IMG/VR virus record: IMGVR_UViG_3300032180_000006
Span: 6,265 to 70,264 of that record
Length of the DNA stretch: 64,000 nucleotides
Direction: 5' to 3' (one strand)
Source of the DNA: a virus
The position numbers and the translations under genes were made by a program. Each line of letters opens with the position of its first letter. Positions within the stretch are counted from its first letter, which is position 1. The notes beneath the pieces were generated by a model that was not told the DNA's origin, did not search any database, and saw only the letters and a program-made list of their open reading frames with translations. Below are positions 1-6,193 of this stretch, piece by piece.

Positions 1-283
1 GCCCAGCAGCGGTAAAGCCATAGTTAAAGGCTGCCACACCTGCGCAGCTTTGCACGGGCAGGTCGTGCTCGCGCCAGCGTGGTCCAAATTTACCGCACGT
101 CTGTACAGTGTCAGCCGTGCGCACGGCCAGCAGCGCGGTGAAGGCGATTTTATTGGTAGTGTCCAACAGCTTGGGTCGCGGGCTGTCGGGTAGTGTTTGA
201 CAATGACCCATCGCACCGACTAAAAGAAACAGCAGCGCCAGCGCGACGAGGGCTATGGTTACGTCCTTGCTATCTTGTTGCAT
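1..283 (-). CDS. Hypothetical membrane/secreted protein (runs off window edge)
   Basis: ATG at 283 after GGAGG; MQQDSKDVTIALVALALLFLLVGAMG hydrophobic N-terminus; frame open to position 1. Confidence 0.6.
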   Translation of the reverse strand, partial: MQQDSKDVTIALVALALLFLLVGAMGHCQTLPDSPRPKLLDTTNKIAFTALLAVRTADTVQTCGKFGPRWREHDLPVQSCAGVAAFNYGFTAAG

Positions 284-389
284 TTTACTGCCTCCCTTGG
301 AACTGCGTTCGTTCAAGTGGCTGAGGGTTTGGCTGCCACTGGCTATGCGCTAGAACGCAATTCCAAGCGGAGCAGTAAAACTCCGCTTG
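284..389 (-). other. Structured intergenic RNA element with alternative hairpins overlapping the RBS
   Basis: UUGGAAUUGCGUUC/GAACGCAGUUCCAA stem; CAAGCGGAG/CUCCGCUUG hairpin competes with UUUUACUGC/GCAGUAAAA. Confidence 0.55.
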
Positions 390-391
390 TG

Positions 392-622
392 CTACCTGGA
401 TTTTCTGGCTGAGTGTATTACAGATGGCCCGCGCAGCGTGTCGGCGATGAAGAGATTCACTTGGTCTTCATGGCGATACTCAGCAATTCTTCGTTCGTCC
501 ACCCACTCGCCGTCGACGGCTGAGAAGCGTTGTGGCATCAGTTGATAGTAGAGTGAACCGGGAATCAGTTCAACGATGATACGACGATCACCATCGTTGG
601 CGATTAATTCAGATTTTGGCAT
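392..622 (-). CDS. Hypothetical early protein (76 aa, MPKSELI)
   Basis: AAGGAGAA RBS before ATG 622; the MQVASPAT extension in the ORF track is ribozyme sequence. Confidence 0.75.
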   Translation of the reverse strand: MPKSELIANDGDRRIIVELIPGSLYYQLMPQRFSAVDGEWVDERRIAEYRHEDQVNLFIADTLRGPSVIHSARKSR

Positions 623-644
623 TGCATTCTCCTTTAACTGCGTT

Positions 645-709
645 GCAGGGCTTGCAACCTGCATGCCGCATTACAGTCCGCGAGGCAAGGTGCGCGGGCT
701 GTGCTCTGC
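645..709 (-). ncRNA. Twister ribozyme, circularly permuted (P5-type), copy A
   Basis: GCAGAG-CA-[P1 hairpin]-UAAUGC-GGCAU-GCAGG UUGCAAGC CCUGC; T1 GCA/UGC; predicted cut 673/672. Confidence 0.88.
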
Positions 710-713
710 GTCT

Positions 714-929
714 TTACGTACCTGTGATTAAGGTGATGCGCCGCTTAACGCTGTCATCTTCAATTTGCAGCGCCTCAACCACATCATTGACGCACTCGTA
801 TAAGCGTTCTCTAACTTCCGTTTTGCTGAGTTTACTGGTGGGCTGGTCAGCGACAATACTGGCAAGCGCTGCGCCTGCATTGGCTACGCAGTCGTAAAAA
901 CTGCGTTCACGTTTACTACCGTCGGGCAT
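714..929 (-). CDS. Hypothetical early protein (71 aa, MPDGSK)
   Basis: CAGGAGAAGGGAA before ATG 929. Confidence 0.7.
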   Translation of the reverse strand: MPDGSKRERSFYDCVANAGAALASIVADQPTSKLSKTEVRERLYECVNDVVEALQIEDDSVKRRITLITGT

Positions 930-945
930 TTCCCTTCTCCTGTTC

Positions 946-1020
946 TGCCTCATGGCGGACTTGGAACCGCCTGTGTGCATTACAACCCGGCACGAAACCG
1001 GGCTGTCCTCTGCTTAGGCA
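946..1020 (-). ncRNA. Twister ribozyme, P5-type, copy B
   Basis: P5 UGCCU/AGGCA; GCAGAG-GA-CAGCCCGG..CCGGGUUG-UAAUGC; P4 GGCGG UUCCAAGU CCGCC; T1 GGA/UCC; cut 982/981. Confidence 0.9.
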
Positions 1021-1229
1021 ATAGGCTCCAGCGTTACCTTGAACCCGCTTACTGCATCGGGGTCAATACCAGCTTTGAGCATAGCAGCTTTGCTGACGTA
1101 GATACTGGTCAGCGCTGGGTCCTTGGCACCTTGCTCGGCGTCAAAGCGAACACTGTGCTTCTTCTCAATGCGAACGGGCAATAACTGAACGATGGATTTC
1201 GCTGTTATCGTACCCTGTTTAGTAGCCAT
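1014..1229 (-). CDS. Hypothetical early protein (71 aa)
   Basis: GGAGG RBS; stop codon lies 2-3 nt from the GCAGAG of ribozyme B. Confidence 0.75.
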   Translation of the reverse strand: MATKQGTITAKSIVQLLPVRIEKKHSVRFDAEQGAKDPALTSIYVSKAAMLKAGIDPDAVSGFKVTLEPIA

Positions 1230-1251
1230 GATTGGCCTCCATCTGCCTCAT

Positions 1252-1307
1252 GCGCGACTTGGGACGCGCTCTGTGCATTACAGCCCGGTTCGCGGGCTGC
1301 CCTCTGC
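1252..1307 (-). ncRNA. Twister ribozyme, P5-type, copy C
   Basis: GCAGAG-GG-CAGCCCG..CGGGCUG-UAAUGC; P4 GCGCG UCCCAAGU CGCGC; T1 GGG/CCC; cut 1280/1279. Confidence 0.88.
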
Positions 1308-1308
1308 T

Positions 1309-1569
1309 TTATGCTGCTGTGATGGGTTTGAATTCTAGCGCCGCGCATGTATCACAATCATTGCGCCGTTCATGTTGCGCATGTATCAGTAGGCTTTGGA
1401 TTGACGTATCGCCGTTGAACCATTGCTCACAGTGTGTGCACTGATAGCGCTTAACGCCATCGTTGCGGTTTTCAAGTTCAAAGTGCGCGCCAAGGTGCAG
1501 CGCCAGCGTTTCGAATTCTGCCAGCGTTACAGTGCGCAAACGCACATTGTAATTGATAGTTGGTGGCAT
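1309..1569 (-). CDS. Cys/His zinc-finger-like early protein
   Basis: AAGGAG RBS; YQCTHC...HAQH...CDTC. Confidence 0.7.
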   Translation of the reverse strand: MPPTINYNVRLRTVTLAEFETLALHLGAHFELENRNDGVKRYQCTHCEQWFNGDTSIQSLLIHAQHERRNDCDTCAALEFKPITAA

Positions 1570-1585
1570 TTCTGTTCTCCTTTTT

Positions 1586-1648
1586 AGCGTTGCAGGGCTT
1601 GCAACCTGCATGCCGCATTGCGCGGGCAGCGCCCGCGTGCTCTGCGCT
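1586..1648 (-). ncRNA. Twister ribozyme, P5-type, copy D
   Basis: GCAGAG-CA-CGCGGGC GCU GCCCGCG-CAAUGC-GGCAU-GCAGG UUGCAAGC CCUGC; cut C1620/A1619. Confidence 0.85.
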
Positions 1649-1654
1649 TACCTT

Positions 1655-2281
1655 TTACATACCCAGCTTGCCCGCGCACTCCGGGCCGAAACCGCTGGCT
1701 ACACTTTCAGGAACGGTGAGCGTTCGCCCGCATCTGCCGCACTTGCCCGCGTGCCATATTTCAAGCTCGGCGGGCAGTATGCCACCTACCAGTCGGCGCA
1801 GACTCCATGCCAACGCCTTAACAGGTATGCTGTCATTGTTCATGTGGCTCTTGCGGGTAAGCTGGAAGACGTTGTGCTTAATCATGCCGATGTAGACATA
1901 ATCGCCCGTGTTGTCCGGGCCACTTAGCAGGCTGACAAAGTACACCACACCGTTGTTCGCGTAGGCTGGGTTGTCCTTGGCACGGCGCACCTTATAGGTA
2001 TACCGTGCGCCCGTGGCTTTGCTGCGCAGCGTGAAGGTAGCGTTGCCGCCTGTAATGAACTGCAACGCTCGCTGTGCTGTGCTCAGGTGGGCAGGGCCAA
2101 CACCATCTAACGGTAACTGCTGCGCAGGTGCAGGCGGCACCATACGGTCAAATTCGTTGTCTGTGTCGTCAACCGCCATAGCGGGCTTTGCAGGTTTCCT
2201 GCGTGTCATGTCGGCTTGTGTGGTGTTAGCCATGCGCGTATAGAACGGTGCTTCGTTGACGTTGTGGTAACGGCGGGTCAT
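1655..2281 (-). CDS. DUF6011-like zinc-ribbon protein
   Basis: C-terminal CGRCGRTLTVPESVASGFGPEC; AAGGAG RBS before ATG 2281. Confidence 0.75.
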   Translation of the reverse strand: MTRRYHNVNEAPFYTRMANTTQADMTRRKPAKPAMAVDDTDNEFDRMVPPAPAQQLPLDGVGPAHLSTAQRALQFITGGNATFTLRSKATGARYTYKVRRAKDNPAYANNGVVYFVSLLSGPDNTGDYVYIGMIKHNVFQLTRKSHMNNDSIPVKALAWSLRRLVGGILPAELEIWHAGKCGRCGRTLTVPESVASGFGPECAGKLGM

Positions 2282-2298
2282 GGTAAATCTCCTTTGGA

Positions 2299-2402
2299 GC
2301 GTTGCAGGGCTTGCAACCTGCATGCCGCATTACAGCAGCCAAGCCCAGCGAGCAGGGAGTGATGTGCTGGGCTTGGTAACTACTGTGCTCTGCGAACTAC
2401 GC
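2299..2402 (-). ncRNA. Twister ribozyme, P5-type, copy E (long P1)
   Basis: P5 GCGU/ACGC; GCAGAG-CA-CAGUAG..CCAAGCCCAGC/GCUGGGCUUGG..CUGCUG-UAAUGC; same P4/L4 as A and D; cut 2332/2331. Confidence 0.88.
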
Positions 2403-2633
2403 GGCCAGCTTAACCAGCTTGGACGCCACAGCAAAGCGGATGAAGCTGTTGTCCGCGCCGACTTTCTTCAGCTTTGGAATGGCCTTATCGGTGGTCTTGC
2501 TGGTCAGGATGATGTCCATGCCCTTCTGCCGCTTGGTACCCTTGCGAGCACCGTGTTCGCGGTTGATGACGACGATTTTCTTGCCAGTGTAACGACCAAC
2601 GGAACGACGAGCAACTTTCTTTGAGTTTTTCAT
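2397..2633 (-). CDS. Small basic protein, possibly nucleic-acid binding
   Basis: 78 aa, Lys/Arg rich, AAGGA RBS. Confidence 0.7.
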   Translation of the reverse strand: MKNSKKVARRSVGRYTGKKIVVINREHGARKGTKRQKGMDIILTSKTTDKAIPKLKKVGADNSFIRFAVASKLVKLAA

Positions 2634-2684
2634 TTTTGTTTATCCTTTTCTTAGTTGAATTTCTGCGGCTGGTACCTTATACCT

Positions 2685-2740
2685 GAGCTCATCAGTGCCT
2701 GATTTTACAGGCAGACACGGCGCAATGCCGTGTTTCGCTC
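2685..2740 (-). ncRNA. Hammerhead ribozyme, type II
   Basis: GAGC-GAAAC-ACGGC AUUGC GCCGU-GUC-UGCCUG UAAAAU CAGGCA-CUGAUGA-GCUC: complete core and three stems; cut after C at 2714. Confidence 0.95.
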
Positions 2741-2745
2741 TTTTT

Positions 2746-2847
2746 CTAGAGCCATAGAAGACGGCGCAGGTAGTGCGCAAAGCCCGCTAAGTCTGTACAC
2801 AGACCGCGAGCAAAGTTTTGAGCGTAAAGCGCAAATCCTCGTGCCAT
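2746..2847 (-). CDS. Small ORF, 33 aa (MARGFALYAQ)
   Basis: AAGGAGGCGGCAAGAAATG leader, nearly identical to that of the upstream gene; below ORF-track cutoff. Confidence 0.55.
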   Translation of the reverse strand: MARGFALYAQNFARGLCTDLAGFAHYLRRLLWL

Positions 2848-2874
2848 TTCTTGCCGCCTCCTTAACGGTTTCAC

Positions 2875-3108
2875 TTACGCAATGCGAACCATTGCAATCA
2901 GCAGTTCGTTCGGTGTGCCTTTAGCGTAATCCAACCATTTGCCATCTTGCAGGCGTTGTGTGTACAGCATGACTTGTCCTTGACTGTCTACGTAGCTCGC
3001 ACCTTGCGAAATACGATAACGGCCAGTACGGTCGTGCGTCAGTGCAAACTCTTGCGGAAATTTGCCCATCGCTTCTAAAATCTTAAGGTCGTCATTTTCA
3101 TGCCACAT
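2875..3108 (-). CDS. Hypothetical early protein (MWHEND)
   Basis: AGGAGGCGGCAAGAAATG leader. Confidence 0.7.
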   Translation of the reverse strand: MWHENDDLKILEAMGKFPQEFALTHDRTGRYRISQGASYVDSQGQVMLYTQRLQDGKWLDYAKGTPNELLIAMVRIA

Positions 3109-3122
3109 TTCTTGCCGCCTCC

Positions 3123-3213
3123 TAGCGGTTTGCAGCACCTTATACAAGGTTGCCGTGCTTTCGCGGCAATCGCGCTGCATTTCATGCAGTGTATAAGGTG
3201 CTGCAAACCGCTA
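3123..3213. repeat. Perfect 24-bp inverted repeat enclosing two small hairpins
   Basis: TAGCGGTTTGCAGCACCTTATACA (3123-3146) / TGTATAAGGTGCTGCAAACCGCTA (3190-3213). Confidence 0.9.
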
Positions 3214-3457
3214 CGGGTTGCGCCTTGGCTAAAGTGCCGCCCGCTCGGCTGGGCATTGCGTGTACATCCGCTTTTATGCGCGTTACACGTCGCAGCCTGC
3301 TTCGCAGGTGGTTGGTACTTTGCCAAGGGCTTGTGGAGGCGGTGGCTTGCGCGCTTGAAAACCGCCGTAGCTTTCGGGCTGGCCCTCTGCAAGTGCGTTG
3401 CAGTTTAACCGTTTAACTCCGCCTGCCCTGTGTTGTCAATGAACTGTTACTGCACAT

Positions 3458-3486
3458 AATGTACGCCTGTAGTTACAGGCATGCAA
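3458..3486 (-). promoter_or_regulatory. Sigma70-like promoter with palindromic operator, upstream of the ribozyme operon
   Basis: TTGCAT-17 nt-TACATT; spacer contains GCCTGTAACTACAGGC. Confidence 0.55.
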
Positions 3487-3535
3487 GCAAAAAGTGAAAA
3501 ATAGGCCTGACTTTATCAGACCTGTTTTCAATCAC

Positions 3536-3709
3536 TTAGGCAGCGCGTACGAAAACTGACGCAACCCAGCACGGCGGGCTTAGTCGCAGGCGGGCTGCAT
3601 TAATGGCGCGCACATCTTCACCATATCGTAACAGAGTTTGCGTCTGTGCGATGCCCAGTTGTTGCCAGTGCCACCAGCTTTGTGACGCAACAAAATATTC
3701 TGTCTTCAT
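3536..3709 (-). CDS. Hypothetical protein
   Basis: ORF coupled (TAATG) to upstream gene. Confidence 0.5.
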   Translation of the reverse strand: MKTEYFVASQSWWHWQQLGIAQTQTLLRYGEDVRAINAARLRLSPPCWVASVFVRAA

Positions 3710-3936
3710 TATTTCACCGCCGTAACGCAACTGATAGCCGTACCACCATCTGCAAAGTTGGCGACAATAGCGTAACAGCGTGTATGCGTTTCGCGATCTT
3801 CAACGAACAATAAGGTGTGAGTGTGGTTCGTCCATTCAACATTGACCCACAATTTTGAAACCGCTTGCGACAAACCAAGGTTAAATGCCGCCAGCAGCCC
3901 AACAGCTACCCATATTCCTATAACAAATTTTTTCAT
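3709..3936 (-). CDS. Small membrane/secreted protein
   Basis: MKKFVIGIWVAVGLLAAF; GGGAG RBS. Confidence 0.6.
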   Translation of the reverse strand: MKKFVIGIWVAVGLLAAFNLGLSQAVSKLWVNVEWTNHTHTLLFVEDRETHTRCYAIVANFADGGTAISCVTAVK

Positions 3937-4127
3937 GCTGCGCTCCCTTTCTTTAGTTCTTCATTACTTGTCAGCGCGTAGTTTCTTAAGCGATGCTGTA
4001 TGTACAGCAAAAATCGTTCCTCCAAGTCCCTGATATTGTTCGAACGTGGTTCGGCGTTTGCCTGTACTTCCAAGGTGTACTTGGTAGCAAGATACAGCAG
4101 ATGGTCTAATACGCGCCTGTCGTCCAC
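3933..4127 (-). CDS. Hypothetical protein
   Basis: GAGG RBS, GTG start just downstream of a promoter. Confidence 0.5.
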   Translation of the reverse strand: MDDRRVLDHLLYLATKYTLEVQANAEPRSNNIRDLEERFLLYIQHRLRNYALTSNEELKKGSAA

Positions 4128-4147
4128 CGTCTTTTACCTCTACCAGT

Positions 4148-4176
4148 ATTATACCTTTATAACTACACCATTGCAA
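4148..4176 (-). promoter_or_regulatory. Sigma70-like promoter
   Basis: TTGCAA-17 nt-TATAAT; TGTAGTTATA in spacer. Confidence 0.7.
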
Positions 4177-4181
4177 TAGAT

Positions 4182-5627
4182 CTATGGTGTCTGGTGGCGC
4201 ACCTTAATATACGTGCGTAGAGCCTGCATCAACCCGCGCTGTGTGCGTTCTTTGCTGCGCATGGCGCGCAGTTTACTTTCATCTACGGTGTCGCGGGCTA
4301 TAAAGTGGTGGACGATCACGTGGCCGTGCTTGTTACCCTGCCTGCGCACGCGGCGGATAAACTGGTCGTAGTTTTCAAAGTCCCAAGGCACGGTATAGAA
4401 CGCTACGTGCTGGCACTGACCTTCTTGCAGATTAAGCCCATGCGCTACGCTGGCGACGTTACAGGCGAACAGCGACAGCTTATTGCCGTTCCACTGCTGT
4501 ATGATGCGCCGCGCATCGTCGGGCTTGACACCACCTTTAATGTATGGCGTCCGCGGGAACGCGGTCAGTATGCGTTCCAGGTCATGGTCAAACTCAAAGC
4601 CCAGCAGCAGCGGCACACCTTGCAGTTCTTCAACTAGATCTACCAGTGCCTCGGTCTTGGCATTGTGCAGCAATTTACTGATGCGGTTGATGCGCTCGTT
4701 TTTCAGTTCGTTAATATAGATTCCGCCGCTGGCAACTTGACAGCATTTCATACTGGCGACGGCTGCGTTCACGGCGGTAACTACGCTGCGATCTTCCAGT
4801 TCAGCTATCATTTCATCTTCAAGGTCATCGTAAATTTTGCGCGCTGCTGGTGGCAGTGCCACGCGAATAATGTTCGGTACTTCCTTGGGTACCTTGAGGT
4901 ACTCATTTTCATCCAGACTTAGCACCAGCGGCTTGATGGCGCGCTGGATTGCCTTTTCGCCGCCCTGCTTCAATCGCCAGTTGTACACGATTGGCCCGCT
5001 GCCTCCAGCGGGTATAAAATAATTCATGCGGAAATGCGTTATGTATTCGCCCAGCGCCTTTCCTAAGTCTAGAATGTAGATTTGCCCAAACAAATCCATG
5101 TACCCATTAGGATTCGGGCTGCCTGTAAGTATCCAGCGTCGTTGGAAACGTGATAAGAACGGCTTCAGCAGCTTGAACCGCCGTGTTCGCGTGTGTTTGA
5201 ACTTACTGCTTTCATCAATGATCAGCAATTCAGGCTTGATTATATTGAACGGTGACTGCCCGGTGCGATTGGCAAAGAACCACGGCAACCCATCAGGATT
5301 GATAATGTACACATCCGCGTCCGTATTAACGGCATCGTCCTTGTTATCGCCGTGCAGTATGTTCCAACGCAGGTGGCTGAACTGTTTCCACTGGTCAATC
5401 TGCACGGGCCATACTTCATACGCTGGCCGCAAAGGCGGCACCACCAGCGCACGACGAATCAGTTTATTTTTCAGCAGTATGTCTAGTGCTTTTAACGCGA
5501 TGCTGGTTTTTCCCAGTCCTGGGTCTAAGAACAGACCTGCGCTGCATTGTTTTAGCAGGAACTGCACTGCCATTTTTTGATACGGGTGTGGTATCCAATC
5601 CTGTTGCAAAAATGTATTTTCTGGCAT
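4182..5627 (-). CDS. SNF2-like (DEAD/SF2) helicase
   Basis: PGLGKT, IIDESS, LTGSP, HGLNLQ, RVRRQG motifs; start uncertain (5627 or 5771). Confidence 0.9.
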   Translation of the reverse strand: MPENTFLQQDWIPHPYQKMAVQFLLKQCSAGLFLDPGLGKTSIALKALDILLKNKLIRRALVVPPLRPAYEVWPVQIDQWKQFSHLRWNILHGDNKDDAVNTDADVYIINPDGLPWFFANRTGQSPFNIIKPELLIIDESSKFKHTRTRRFKLLKPFLSRFQRRWILTGSPNPNGYMDLFGQIYILDLGKALGEYITHFRMNYFIPAGGSGPIVYNWRLKQGGEKAIQRAIKPLVLSLDENEYLKVPKEVPNIIRVALPPAARKIYDDLEDEMIAELEDRSVVTAVNAAVASMKCCQVASGGIYINELKNERINRISKLLHNAKTEALVDLVEELQGVPLLLGFEFDHDLERILTAFPRTPYIKGGVKPDDARRIIQQWNGNKLSLFACNVASVAHGLNLQEGQCQHVAFYTVPWDFENYDQFIRRVRRQGNKHGHVIVHHFIARDTVDESKLRAMRSKERTQRGLMQALRTYIKVRHQTP

Positions 5628-5988
5628 CAAGTTCGTGGGTAAATCTTCTTGGTACGATTTTGGCAAAAGCGTCGCTGATTGTTTTTGCGAAGAACTTGCC
5701 TTCTTTTTCTCTTCTAAGTAATTCCTTGAGATAGGCAATGGCTTTGTCTTTGTTGTCAAAATAGGTGACATCGTAACCTAGTTTCTTTAGAATACTGATG
5801 GTGTGCTGCTGTAAACGTCTAGGTTTCTTACCCGGTCGCTTGAACTCCATTAAGCAGGGGCGACCGCCCGGTATAAAGAAAATTCTATCTGTGTACCCGC
5901 GTCTGCCCAGCACGTTCAGCTTTAAGTGCAGCAGCCCGCACGCATCAGCCCAGTGGCACACGGGCTTTTCAATGTTGTGTTCAAGCAT
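5464..5988 (-). CDS. VRR-NUC domain nuclease
   Basis: E..IE, GYTDRIF, MEFKRPG..RRLQ. Confidence 0.85.
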   Translation of the reverse strand: MLEHNIEKPVCHWADACGLLHLKLNVLGRRGYTDRIFFIPGGRPCLMEFKRPGKKPRRLQQHTISILKKLGYDVTYFDNKDKAIAYLKELLRREKEGKFFAKTISDAFAKIVPRRFTHELDARKYIFATGLDTTPVSKNGSAVPAKTMQRRSVLRPRTGKNQHRVKSTRHTAEK

Positions 5989-5989
5989 G

Positions 5990-6193
5990 CTAATCTTTCA
6001 ATTCTTTGGCAAGTTCCAGCAAAGCATACCACTGGTTACTGTCAAATGAAATGCCGATCTTGTTATCAATATACACAGATACTACGTTCACTGTACGATG
6101 GCTAACTAAATGCATGGTGTGTCCGGGACATCCTTCTCTTACGCAATCGTCCACACAGCGGTATTGAATCTTTGATGTAGTTTTCGTAGACAT
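5990..6193 (-). CDS. Hypothetical protein
   Basis: Coupled ORF in operon. Confidence 0.55.
   Translation of the reverse strand: MSTKTTSKIQYRCVDDCVREGCPGHTMHLVSHRTVNVVSVYIDNKIGISFDSNQWYALLELAKELKD

What the first reader, a model, noticed from the sequence alone, without database searches (positions are those of the whole stretch)
2685..2740. Canonical type-II hammerhead at the head of the twister array
Seen: CUGAUGA and GAAAC core with a GUC cleavage triplet. Stem I is UGCCUG/CAGGCA, stem III is CACGGC/GCCGUG, and the open stem II is GAGC/GCUC, 5 nt after the stop of a 33-aa ORF. A second, unrelated ribozyme class in the same positional role argues that cleavage itself, not a repeated DNA site, is the selected function.
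Basis: partly seen in the sequence, partly recalled or inferred. Interest (0 to 1): 0.8.

Follow-up and report, generated by a model that had tools for sequence, protein, structure and literature searches.

The report
Ordinary hammerhead ribozyme in phage operon
A genuine copy of the well-known hammerhead self-cutting RNA sits between two small genes of an uncultivated soil phage, just ahead of five twister self-cutting RNAs, which is a tidy example of an arrangement already described for phages rather than something new.

Summary
On the minus strand, 2740-2685 carries every conserved hammerhead core base, a GUC cleavage triplet (cut predicted after C2714), closed stems I and III and an open 4-bp stem II. 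It starts 5 nt after the stop of a 33-aa ORF and 51 nt before the next ATG.

Rfam Hammerhead_II scores it 33.9 bits, under the 37-bit cut-off. The shortfall comes from the missing loop-I/3'-tail pseudoknot. Among 25 phage hammerheads of the same no-pseudoknot build, only 4 pass that cut-off. A model I built from 33 such hammerheads, leaving out the window copy, scores it 56.6 bits as the only hit in the window.

Five Twister-P5 ribozymes follow on the same strand, each 0-8 nt after a stop codon. The same scan already followed up these twisters and called them ordinary.

Mixed twister/hammerhead neighbours recur in 8 of 118 twister-bearing phage stretches.

The proposed contact between loop I and the downstream tail has no support: at most 2 complementary bases, and the tail folds as its own hairpin.

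No RNA data and no diverged orthologous copy could be obtained, so cleavage is inferred. This is a new member of a known kind, of low interest.

The parts
2685..2740 (-). Type II hammerhead ribozyme. Stem II is 2740-2737/2688-2685, GAAA 2736-2733, stem III 2733-2727/2721-2715, C17 is 2714, stem I 2713-2708/2701-2696 and CUGAUGA 2695-2689. The predicted cut lies between 2714 and 2713.
   Evidence: Sequence read. Rfam RF02276 gives 33.9 bits. My own model R1 gives 56.6 bits. The isolated stretch folds as a hammerhead.
2671..2683 (-). Small hairpin (5 bp, 3-nt loop) in the 3' tail of the hammerhead. It contains the 9-mer GTATAAGGT, which is also present in both arms of the inverted repeat at 3123-3213. 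Its role is unknown.
   Evidence: Present in the minimum-energy and centroid folds. The 9-mer has 3 exact copies in 64 kb, all within this operon.
2746..2847 (-). Upstream 33-aa ORF (gene B) with an AAGGAGG ribosome-binding site. Its stop is 5 nt before the hammerhead.
   Evidence: No family match in Pfam or PHROGs.
2875..3108 (-). First gene of the unit (gene A, 77 aa from ATG 3108). No ribozyme lies between A and B.
   Evidence: The Rfam E-value scan found nothing there.
2397..2633 (-). Downstream gene C, a 78-aa very basic phage protein of unknown function. The AAGGA ribosome-binding site is 2647-2643. After cleavage its 5' UTR would be 80 nt.
   Evidence: Homologs P0002-P0004. Atlas neighbours are viral hypothetical proteins.
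2305..2394 (-). Twister-P5 ribozyme 1
   Evidence: Rfam RF02684, 42.1 bits against a cut-off of 37.6.
1593..1646 (-). Twister-P5 ribozyme 2
   Evidence: Rfam, 48.4 bits.
1253..1308 (-). Twister-P5 ribozyme 3
   Evidence: Rfam, 48.3 bits.
955..1014 (-). Twister-P5 ribozyme 4
   Evidence: Rfam, 47.1 bits.
646..710 (-). Twister-P5 ribozyme 5
   Evidence: Rfam, 47.6 bits.

Best explanation
The element is a functional type II hammerhead self-cleaving ribozyme of the no-pseudoknot, 4-bp-stem-II build that is common in phages. It is transcribed as part of a long leftward (minus-strand) phage operon.

While or soon after the spacer between gene B and gene C is transcribed, the three-helix junction forms and the RNA cuts itself after C2714. 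Hammerhead chemistry leaves a 2',3'-cyclic phosphate on the upstream A-B message and a 5'-hydroxyl on the downstream message.

Because the open helix is stem II, both new ends are capped by a hairpin. The upstream RNA ends in stem III plus one C. The downstream RNA begins with stem I. The five twisters then do the same job between the next genes. One transcript is thereby turned into separate gene-sized mRNAs whose stability and translation no longer depend on their neighbours.

Shown here: the motif, its fold, its position and the same-strand array. Inferred: transcription through it, cleavage in vivo, and the effect on mRNA fate.
For: - All conserved core bases, three helices and a GUC triplet are present.
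- Rfam Hammerhead_II gives a full-length match, E 1.2e-6 for the genome.
- Model R1, built from 33 phage hammerheads without the window copy, gives 56.6 bits and a single hit in the window.
- The isolated RNA folds as a hammerhead.
- The build is typical of its subclass. 28 of the 33 have exactly 4 bp in stem II, with many different pair combinations.
- The order stop, then 5 nt, then ribozyme, then RBS, then ATG matches the five twisters on the same strand.
- The flanking minus-strand genes are real: gene C has homologs and gene D is DUF6011 / phrog_20259.
- Type II hammerheads beside Twister-P5 on the same strand, 0.5-1.4 kb apart, occur in 8 of 118 other phage stretches. One of these was checked with Rfam and passes its cut-off (L150, 37.6 bits).
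- Published work (passages seen): prophage hammerhead arrays flank single genes and cleave about 2-kb polycistronic RNAs in vitro (PMC3088659). Three type II hammerheads near phage-like genes cleave in Desulfovibrio vulgaris cells (PMC8782182). Reviews propose polycistronic processing (PMC6765202).
Against: - No cleavage or RNA data exist for this locus.
- The Rfam score is below the curated cut-off (33.9 against 37).
- There is no loop-I/tail pseudoknot (best run 2 bp). For one pseudoknot-type hammerhead, loss of that contact cut the rate 20- to more than 100-fold at 0.5 mM Mg2+ (PMC3088659), so this copy might be slow.
- In a 127-nt context the minimum-energy fold (-38.8 kcal/mol) sequesters both stem II strands. 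The hammerhead-competent fold is 2.1 kcal/mol worse, and stem II has a pair probability of 0.012.
- Predicted RBS accessibility hardly changes with cleavage (0.80 uncut against 0.85 cut), so RBS unmasking is not the benefit.
- The only orthologous locus I could read (L003, gene C homolog at 58% identity) has no ribozyme upstream. The ribozyme is therefore not obligatory for this gene.
Confidence: 0.8

Rival explanations
1. The hammerhead is real but crippled or very slow. Lacking a stem I/stem II tertiary contact and competing with an alternative fold, it cleaves little in vivo. It would be a decaying copy at the edge of an array that now relies on twisters.
For: - There is no pseudoknot.
- The alternative fold is 2.1 kcal/mol better than the active one in context.
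- The Rfam score is below the cut-off.
- L003 manages without a ribozyme before its homolog of gene C.
Against: - Not one core base is mutated.
- 40 of 119 distinct phage hammerheads of this stem-I family also lack a pseudoknot of 4 or more pairs. They share a strictly kept 4-bp stem II (28 of 33), which argues for a selected build rather than decay.
- The identical sequence is present in a second soil study (run X2, 0 differences over 2575-2742).
- An upstream hairpin that blocks stem II is no more common than chance in other copies (4 of 42 against 3.55 expected), so the alternative fold here may be accidental.
Confidence: 0.1
2. It is a regulated ribozyme. Cleavage, or the fate of the 3' product, is controlled through the extra 28-nt module between the hammerhead and the RBS. 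That module is the hairpin 2683-2671, carrying the 9-mer shared with the inverted repeat at 3123-3213. Control could come from a protein that binds both sites, or from ribosomes terminating at the gene B stop 5 nt upstream.
For: - The hammerhead-to-ATG spacer is 51 nt against 23-25 nt for the twisters.
- The 9-mer occurs exactly 3 times in 64 kb, all within 530 nt of this operon's start.
- Two mutually exclusive folds lie within about 2 kcal/mol of each other.
Against: - There are no homologs to test conservation. A hammerhead followed by this 9-mer has 0 matches in the viral collection.
- The upstream-hairpin feature is not enriched among 42 comparable hammerheads.
- The 9-mer with one mismatch is not clearly enriched in the window (13 found against 8.2 expected; 5 of 100 shuffles reach 13).
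Confidence: 0.07
3. It is not an RNA enzyme at all but a plus-strand hairpin or intrinsic terminator, or a DNA-level site. The stem III sequence followed by a T-run on the plus strand could act as a terminator.
For: The consensus scan lists a terminator-like site on the plus strand at 2713-2735, with a 10-pair stem followed by a tail that contains TTTTT.
Against: - All supported genes here are on the minus strand. No plausible plus-strand gene reads into the site.
- A terminator does not explain the 11 or more conserved core bases, stem I or stem II.
- The hit is strand-specific in both covariance models.
Confidence: 0.03

Closest known systems
Type II hammerhead ribozymes of bacteria and prophages (Rfam RF02276; Perreault et al. 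2011, PMC3088659, passages seen)
   Same: - The permutation is the same: stems I and III closed, stem II open.
- The core is the same, and so is the conserved stem I sequence (UGCC.../...GGCA).
- The setting is the same: between small phage genes, often several per operon. More than 119 stretches in IMG/VR carry the same stem-I family.
   Different: It lacks the loop-I/3'-tail pseudoknot that the paper reports for a majority of type II members. Here 79 of 119 distinct copies have at least 4 bp of it. Loop I is 6 nt rather than about 10, and the score is 33.9 bits against a cut-off of 37. The paper itself notes that many hammerheads lack known contacts.
No-pseudoknot phage type II hammerheads with a 4-bp stem II (my own grouping of 33 IMG/VR copies, alignment A2, model R1)
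   Same: - Stem II is 4 bp, stem I is 6-7 bp with a short loop, and there is no tail complementarity.
- The window copy scores 56.6 bits on a model that does not include it.
- This build is under-called by Rfam: 4 of 25 pass the cut-off.
   Different: - Loop I is 6 nt, against mostly 3-5 nt in the group.
- The tail carries an extra hairpin and the RBS is 37 nt away. In most members a GGAG-like RBS appears to follow within about 10-20 nt (by eye, not counted).
Prophage hammerhead arrays shown to cleave polycistronic RNA (Agrobacterium tumefaciens ardA triple array, Clostridium scindens, Azorhizobium caulinodans; PMC3088659) and the Desulfovibrio vulgaris type II hammerheads active in vivo (PMC8782182)
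   Same: Ribozymes flank single genes or short gene blocks of phage origin on one strand. Cleavage yields gene-sized RNAs.
   Different: Those arrays contain hammerheads only. Here one hammerhead heads five twisters. Activity here is untested.
Shared genomic context of twister and hammerhead ribozymes (review PMC6765202; the original twister paper is cited there, and I did not read it)
   Same: Two unrelated self-cleaving classes occur in the same gene neighbourhoods. DUF6011-type genes sit beside ribozymes in three other loci as well (L063, L027, L138).
   Different: Nothing differs in principle. This locus simply shows both classes within a single operon. I found that in 8 of 118 twister-bearing phage stretches.
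Synthetic ribozyme insulators such as RiboJ
   Same: A self-cleaving ribozyme between promoter or upstream context and the RBS leaves a defined 5'-OH end with a hairpin, which decouples expression from upstream sequence.
   Different: Those are engineered single devices. This is a natural six-unit array, and the effect on expression is untested.

Membership tests
Hammerhead ribozyme (class) | Conserved catalytic core: CUGANGA, GAAA, and an A15.1-U16.1 pair | tested here: met
   CUGAUGA is at 2695-2689 and GAAA at 2736-2733. A2733 pairs with U2715.
Hammerhead ribozyme (class) | Three helices around the core with an NUH cleavage triplet (H not G) | tested here: met
   Stems are I 6 bp, II 4 bp and III 7 bp. 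The triplet GUC is 2716-2714. The minimum-energy fold of the 61-nt stretch equals this structure.
Hammerhead ribozyme (class) | Site-specific self-cleavage giving 2',3'-cyclic phosphate and 5'-OH ends | not testable with these tools
   No RNA run holds the locus. This needs an in vitro transcription assay.
Type II hammerhead, Rfam RF02276 | Open stem II, with closed stems I and III | tested here: met
   full-length alignment, model positions 1-66.
Type II hammerhead, Rfam RF02276 | Score at or above the curated gathering cut-off (37 bits) | tested here: not met
   33.9 bits. Only 4 of 25 comparable no-pseudoknot phage copies pass it, so the cut-off under-calls this build.
Type II hammerhead, Rfam RF02276 | Pseudoknot between loop I and the 3' tail (majority feature, Perreault 2011) | tested here: not met
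   The longest complementary run between loop I and the 14-nt tail is 2. The tail folds as its own hairpin.
No-pseudoknot phage type II hammerhead subclass (own model R1) | 4-bp stem II, short loop I, and a significant score on a model built without this copy | tested here: met
   56.6 bits with a rough E-value of 2.5e-16, the single hit in 64 kb. 28 of the 33 model sequences have exactly 4 bp in stem II.
Ribozyme-punctuated phage operon | Several self-cleaving ribozymes on the coding strand, each in an intergenic spacer between stop codon and next RBS | tested here: met
   Six of six ribozymes start 0-8 nt after a stop (one overlaps it by 1 nt) and end 23-51 nt before the next ATG, all on the minus strand.
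Ribozyme-punctuated phage operon | Co-transcription of the whole array as one RNA | not testable with these tools
   There is only a terminator-like site upstream at 3523-3503 and no consensus terminator inside the array on the minus strand that separates the units. No RNA data are available.

The most novel reading that the evidence does not exclude
The hammerhead is not a plain constitutive cutter. The extra 28-nt module behind it is a hairpin carrying the 9-mer that also forms both arms of the 24-bp inverted repeat at the start of the operon. That module would be a binding site for a phage protein, possibly one of the operon's own small basic proteins such as the 78-aa product of the gene just downstream. 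Binding would tip the balance between the active fold and the nearly isoenergetic inactive fold, making this a natural protein-controlled hammerhead that gates release of the downstream messages.
Probability: 0.06. Interest if true: 0.55.

Novelty: new member of a known kind. Interest (0 to 1): 0.2.

Why it matters
It matters little for discovery. Type II hammerheads in phage operons, their pairing with twisters, and the argument that cleavage itself is selected are all in print.

It has three modest practical uses:
- It is a clean natural test bed: six ribozymes of two classes in one 2.4-kb operon. This could help answer the still open question of what self-cleavage does for phage mRNAs, whether stability, insulation or stoichiometry.
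- It shows that Rfam's Hammerhead_II cut-off misses most no-pseudoknot phage copies (4 of 25 pass). Annotation pipelines will under-report them.
- Because the open helix is stem II, both cleavage products end in a hairpin. This follows directly from the sequence and suggests why this permutation suits mRNA processing.

Tried and rejected
1. Orthologous copies for covariation.
- The gene C protein search gave only 3 relatives besides the window's own protein.
- The search for related loci with the protein or with alignment A1 found nothing in viral contigs or genome contigs. It found one metagenome contig, L003, which has no ribozyme at E up to 1.
- The SNF2 helicase gave no related viral contig.
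- tblastn of gene C against cultured phages gave no match. megablast of window 1-6000 gave no match.

2. RNA evidence. No RNA holder is listed. The two DNA runs laid as contigs showed no differences over the parts covered; X2 covers 2575-2742 identically.

3. Tail/loop I contact. Rejected: 2 complementary bases at most.

4. Cleavage unmasking the RBS. Rejected: accessibility is 0.80 uncut against 0.85 cut.

5. The upstream hairpin that sequesters stem II as a general switch. Rejected: 4 of 42 against 3.55 expected, with 48% of the shuffle rounds reaching the observed count.

6. Other ribozyme classes in the leader, in the A-B spacer, in the seventh spacer or in the 6.2 kb beyond the window. 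None at E up to 1-10.

7. My regex for type I/III hammerheads gave 4 candidates near twisters (L140, L189, L192, L199), and L180 gave a type II candidate. None was supported by Rfam at E up to 0.05 or, for L180, by R1. I dropped them from the count of mixed arrays.

8. Twisters in 20 loci holding no-pseudoknot hammerheads: 0 of 20. Mixed arrays are therefore a minority.

9. A hammerhead followed by the 9-mer in viral contigs: 0 matches.

10. Gene C function. Pfam and PHROGs give nothing. Atlas gives only viral hypothetical clusters.

Supplementary files of the papers were not opened. Perreault 2011 Figures S4 and S5 on tertiary contacts may bear on the no-pseudoknot build.

Full report
WHAT IS THERE.

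The window is bases 6265-70264 of a 70,264-base IMG/VR virus record that CheckV estimates to be complete. On the minus strand, 2740-2685 reads as a textbook hammerhead. A 4-bp open stem II (2740-2737 with 2688-2685) brackets GAAA (2736-2733). Next comes a 7-bp stem III with a 5-nt loop (2733-2715), then the GUC triplet ending at C2714. Stem I has 6 bp and a 6-nt loop (2713-2696), and CUGAUGA lies at 2695-2689. That ORF has a strong AAGGAGG ribosome-binding site.

IS IT MORE THAN CHANCE?

- A loose core pattern has one match in the window against 0.01 expected.
- Rfam's Hammerhead_II model aligns full length at 33.9 bits. The E-value is 4.2e-4 in 6 kb and 1.2e-6 for the genome. The curated cut-off is 37 bits, so the default Rfam scan reports only the five twisters.
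- The shortfall has a clear cause. The model expects a roughly 10-nt loop I and a 3' tail that pair as a pseudoknot. Here loop I has 6 nt, and its longest complementarity to the next 14 nt is 2 bases.

Of 119 distinct copies, 79 can form a pseudoknot of 4 or more pairs and 40 cannot. In 20 loci holding 25 of the no-pseudoknot copies, Rfam's gathering threshold reports only 4. Sub-threshold scores are therefore the rule for this build.

After filtering for intact stems, 33 distinct no-pseudoknot copies remained. Of these, 28 have exactly 4 bp in stem II, with many different base-pair combinations. The filter itself required pairing, so this is description rather than independent proof. A covariance model built from these 33, without the window copy, scores the window element at 56.6 bits with a rough E-value of 2.5e-16. 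It is the only hit in 64 kb. The isolated 61-nt RNA folds into exactly the hammerhead secondary structure: -25.2 kcal/mol, z -3.2.

SURROUNDINGS.

All supported genes here are on the minus strand. The unit begins after a terminator-like hairpin at 3523-3503. It runs through gene A (3108-2875) and gene B (2847-2746), then the hammerhead, then gene C (2633-2397). After that the twisters alternate with genes: twister 1, gene D (DUF6011, phrog_20259), twister 2, gene E, twister 3, gene F, twister 4, gene G, twister 5 and gene H. A long hairpin follows that includes the next RBS.

Each ribozyme begins 0-8 nt after a stop codon: 5 nt for the hammerhead and 2, 8, 0 and 3 nt for four twisters. The remaining twister overlaps its stop by 1 nt. 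The twisters end 23, 23, 23, 25 and 23 nt before the next ATG. The hammerhead ends 51 nt before it.

The extra roughly 28 nt hold a small hairpin (2683-2671). Its 9-mer GTATAAGGT also forms part of both arms of the inverted repeat at 3123-3213. These are the only three exact copies in the window.

No further ribozyme of any Rfam family is found in the operon leader, the A-B spacer, the last spacer or the 6.2 kb beyond the window.

HOW IT MOST LIKELY WORKS.

The best reading is self-cleavage of the operon transcript after C2714 (confidence about 0.8). This would separate an A-B message from the downstream genes, which the twisters then cut apart in turn. Hammerhead chemistry gives a 2',3'-cyclic phosphate and a 5'-OH, which is established knowledge for the class.

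One structural consequence follows directly from the sequence. In the type II permutation, the upstream product ends in the stem III hairpin plus one C, and the downstream product begins with the stem I hairpin. Both new ends are hairpin-capped. That the caps and the 5'-OH slow exonucleolytic and 5'-end-dependent decay is my inference, not shown here.

Folding does not support an RBS-unmasking role. The probability that the gene C RBS is unpaired is 0.80 before cleavage and 0.85 after.

In a 127-nt context the minimum-energy fold (-38.8 kcal/mol) pairs both stem II strands elsewhere. The hammerhead-competent fold is 2.1 kcal/mol worse. This could mean slow or regulated cleavage. However, an upstream hairpin of this kind is not enriched among 42 comparable phage hammerheads (4 seen, 3.55 expected), so I treat it as probably accidental.

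COMPARISON WITH WHAT IS KNOWN.

- Perreault et al. 2011 (PMC3088659; abstract and passages seen) described type II hammerheads as very common in bacteria and reported the loop-I/tail pseudoknot in a majority of them. They noted many copies without known contacts. They found multiple hammerheads flanking single genes or short gene blocks in prophages. They showed that such arrays cleave roughly 2-kb polycistronic RNAs in vitro and, for one array, in E. coli.
- Olzog et al. 2021 (PMC8782182; passages seen) detected cleavage of three type II hammerheads near phage-like genes in Desulfovibrio vulgaris cells.
- The 2019 review PMC6765202 (passages seen) states that twister was recognised as a ribozyme because it shares gene neighbourhoods with hammerheads. 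It also states that two unrelated classes in these locations suggest a need for self-cleavage while the exact motif is unimportant.

In my own sample of 118 phage stretches with a Twister-P5-like pattern, 8 carry a type II hammerhead on the same strand 0.5-1.4 kb away (model R1). I checked one of these eight with Rfam and it passes the cut-off (L150, 37.6 bits). In six of the eight the twister comes first, so 'hammerhead at the head' is not a rule. One locus mixes two twisters with an HDV-like ribozyme (L189). Conversely, 0 of 20 hammerhead loci scanned had a twister. Mixed arrays are therefore known and recurrent, but a minority.

LIMITS.

- I could not obtain a diverged orthologous copy.
- The phage has no close relative in IMG/VR, GTDB genomes or cultured phages by the searches run.
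- The one homologous contig read, L003, has no ribozyme before the gene.
- A second soil study holds the identical sequence, which confirms the assembly but gives no variation.
- No RNA run was listed.

VERDICT.

The same scan's follow-up of the five twisters reached the same view. This is a new member of a known kind, with interest 0.2. The only loose thread is the extra hairpin module behind the hammerhead, with its shared 9-mer. I rate it a 6% chance of marking a regulated ribozyme.

Noticed in passing
L003:573-600 and L003:953-980; also L003 about 255-272 and 925-941: In the only readable contig with a gene C homolog, two successive genes are each preceded by a near-identical hairpin-like element just upstream of the RBS. 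Further upstream each has a CCTTAT[AG]TATGTGGTG element. No Rfam family matches at E up to 1. It may be a different, unrecognised processing or promoter element in the slot where this phage has ribozymes.
   Followed up: partly
window 3123-3213, 2674-2682 (and 1650-1658 with one mismatch): The 9-mer GTATAAGGT has three exact copies in 64 kb. Two are the arms of the 24-bp inverted repeat before gene A and one lies in the hairpin right after the hammerhead. A one-mismatch copy sits just before twister 2. It may be a protein-binding site.
   Followed up: partly
window 646-2394, minus strand: The twister-to-ATG distance is almost fixed (23, 23, 23, 25, 23 nt). Three twisters share the same downstream leader beginning CAACGC. 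The ATG inside the twister 3' part creates spurious 'MQVASPAT' N-termini in three ORF calls.
   Followed up: partly
L189:8934-11601 (+): Two Twister-P5 ribozymes and an HDV-like ribozyme (RF02682, 48.4 bits against a cut-off of 44) lie on the same strand within 2.7 kb of a phage contig. This is a mixed array with a third class.
   Followed up: no
L131:2681-5405 (+); L160 and L174 (one contig): Other phage contigs carry six Twister-P5 ribozymes at roughly 0.5-kb spacing, so arrays of this size are not unique to this phage.
   Followed up: no
L063:5514-5951, L027:1951-2184, L138:1094-1321: Homologs of the DUF6011 gene D lie in other ribozyme-bearing phage stretches. In L138 the homolog sits between two twisters, which suggests a recurrent gene-ribozyme association.
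   Followed up: partly
L002:3154-3987 (-), i.e. genome bases upstream of the window: The last roughly 60 residues of a 277-aa ORF are a paralog of the 78-aa gene C product.
   Followed up: no
L129, L147, L177, L228, L240 (hammerhead hits of model R1): Five twister-linked type II hammerheads carry CUGAAGA instead of CUGAUGA and a U instead of G at the first stem II position. This looks like a shared variant lineage.
   Followed up: no
window 2713-2735 (+): The complement of stem III followed by a T-run scores as a terminator-like site on the plus strand. No plus-strand gene reads into it.
   Followed up: partly
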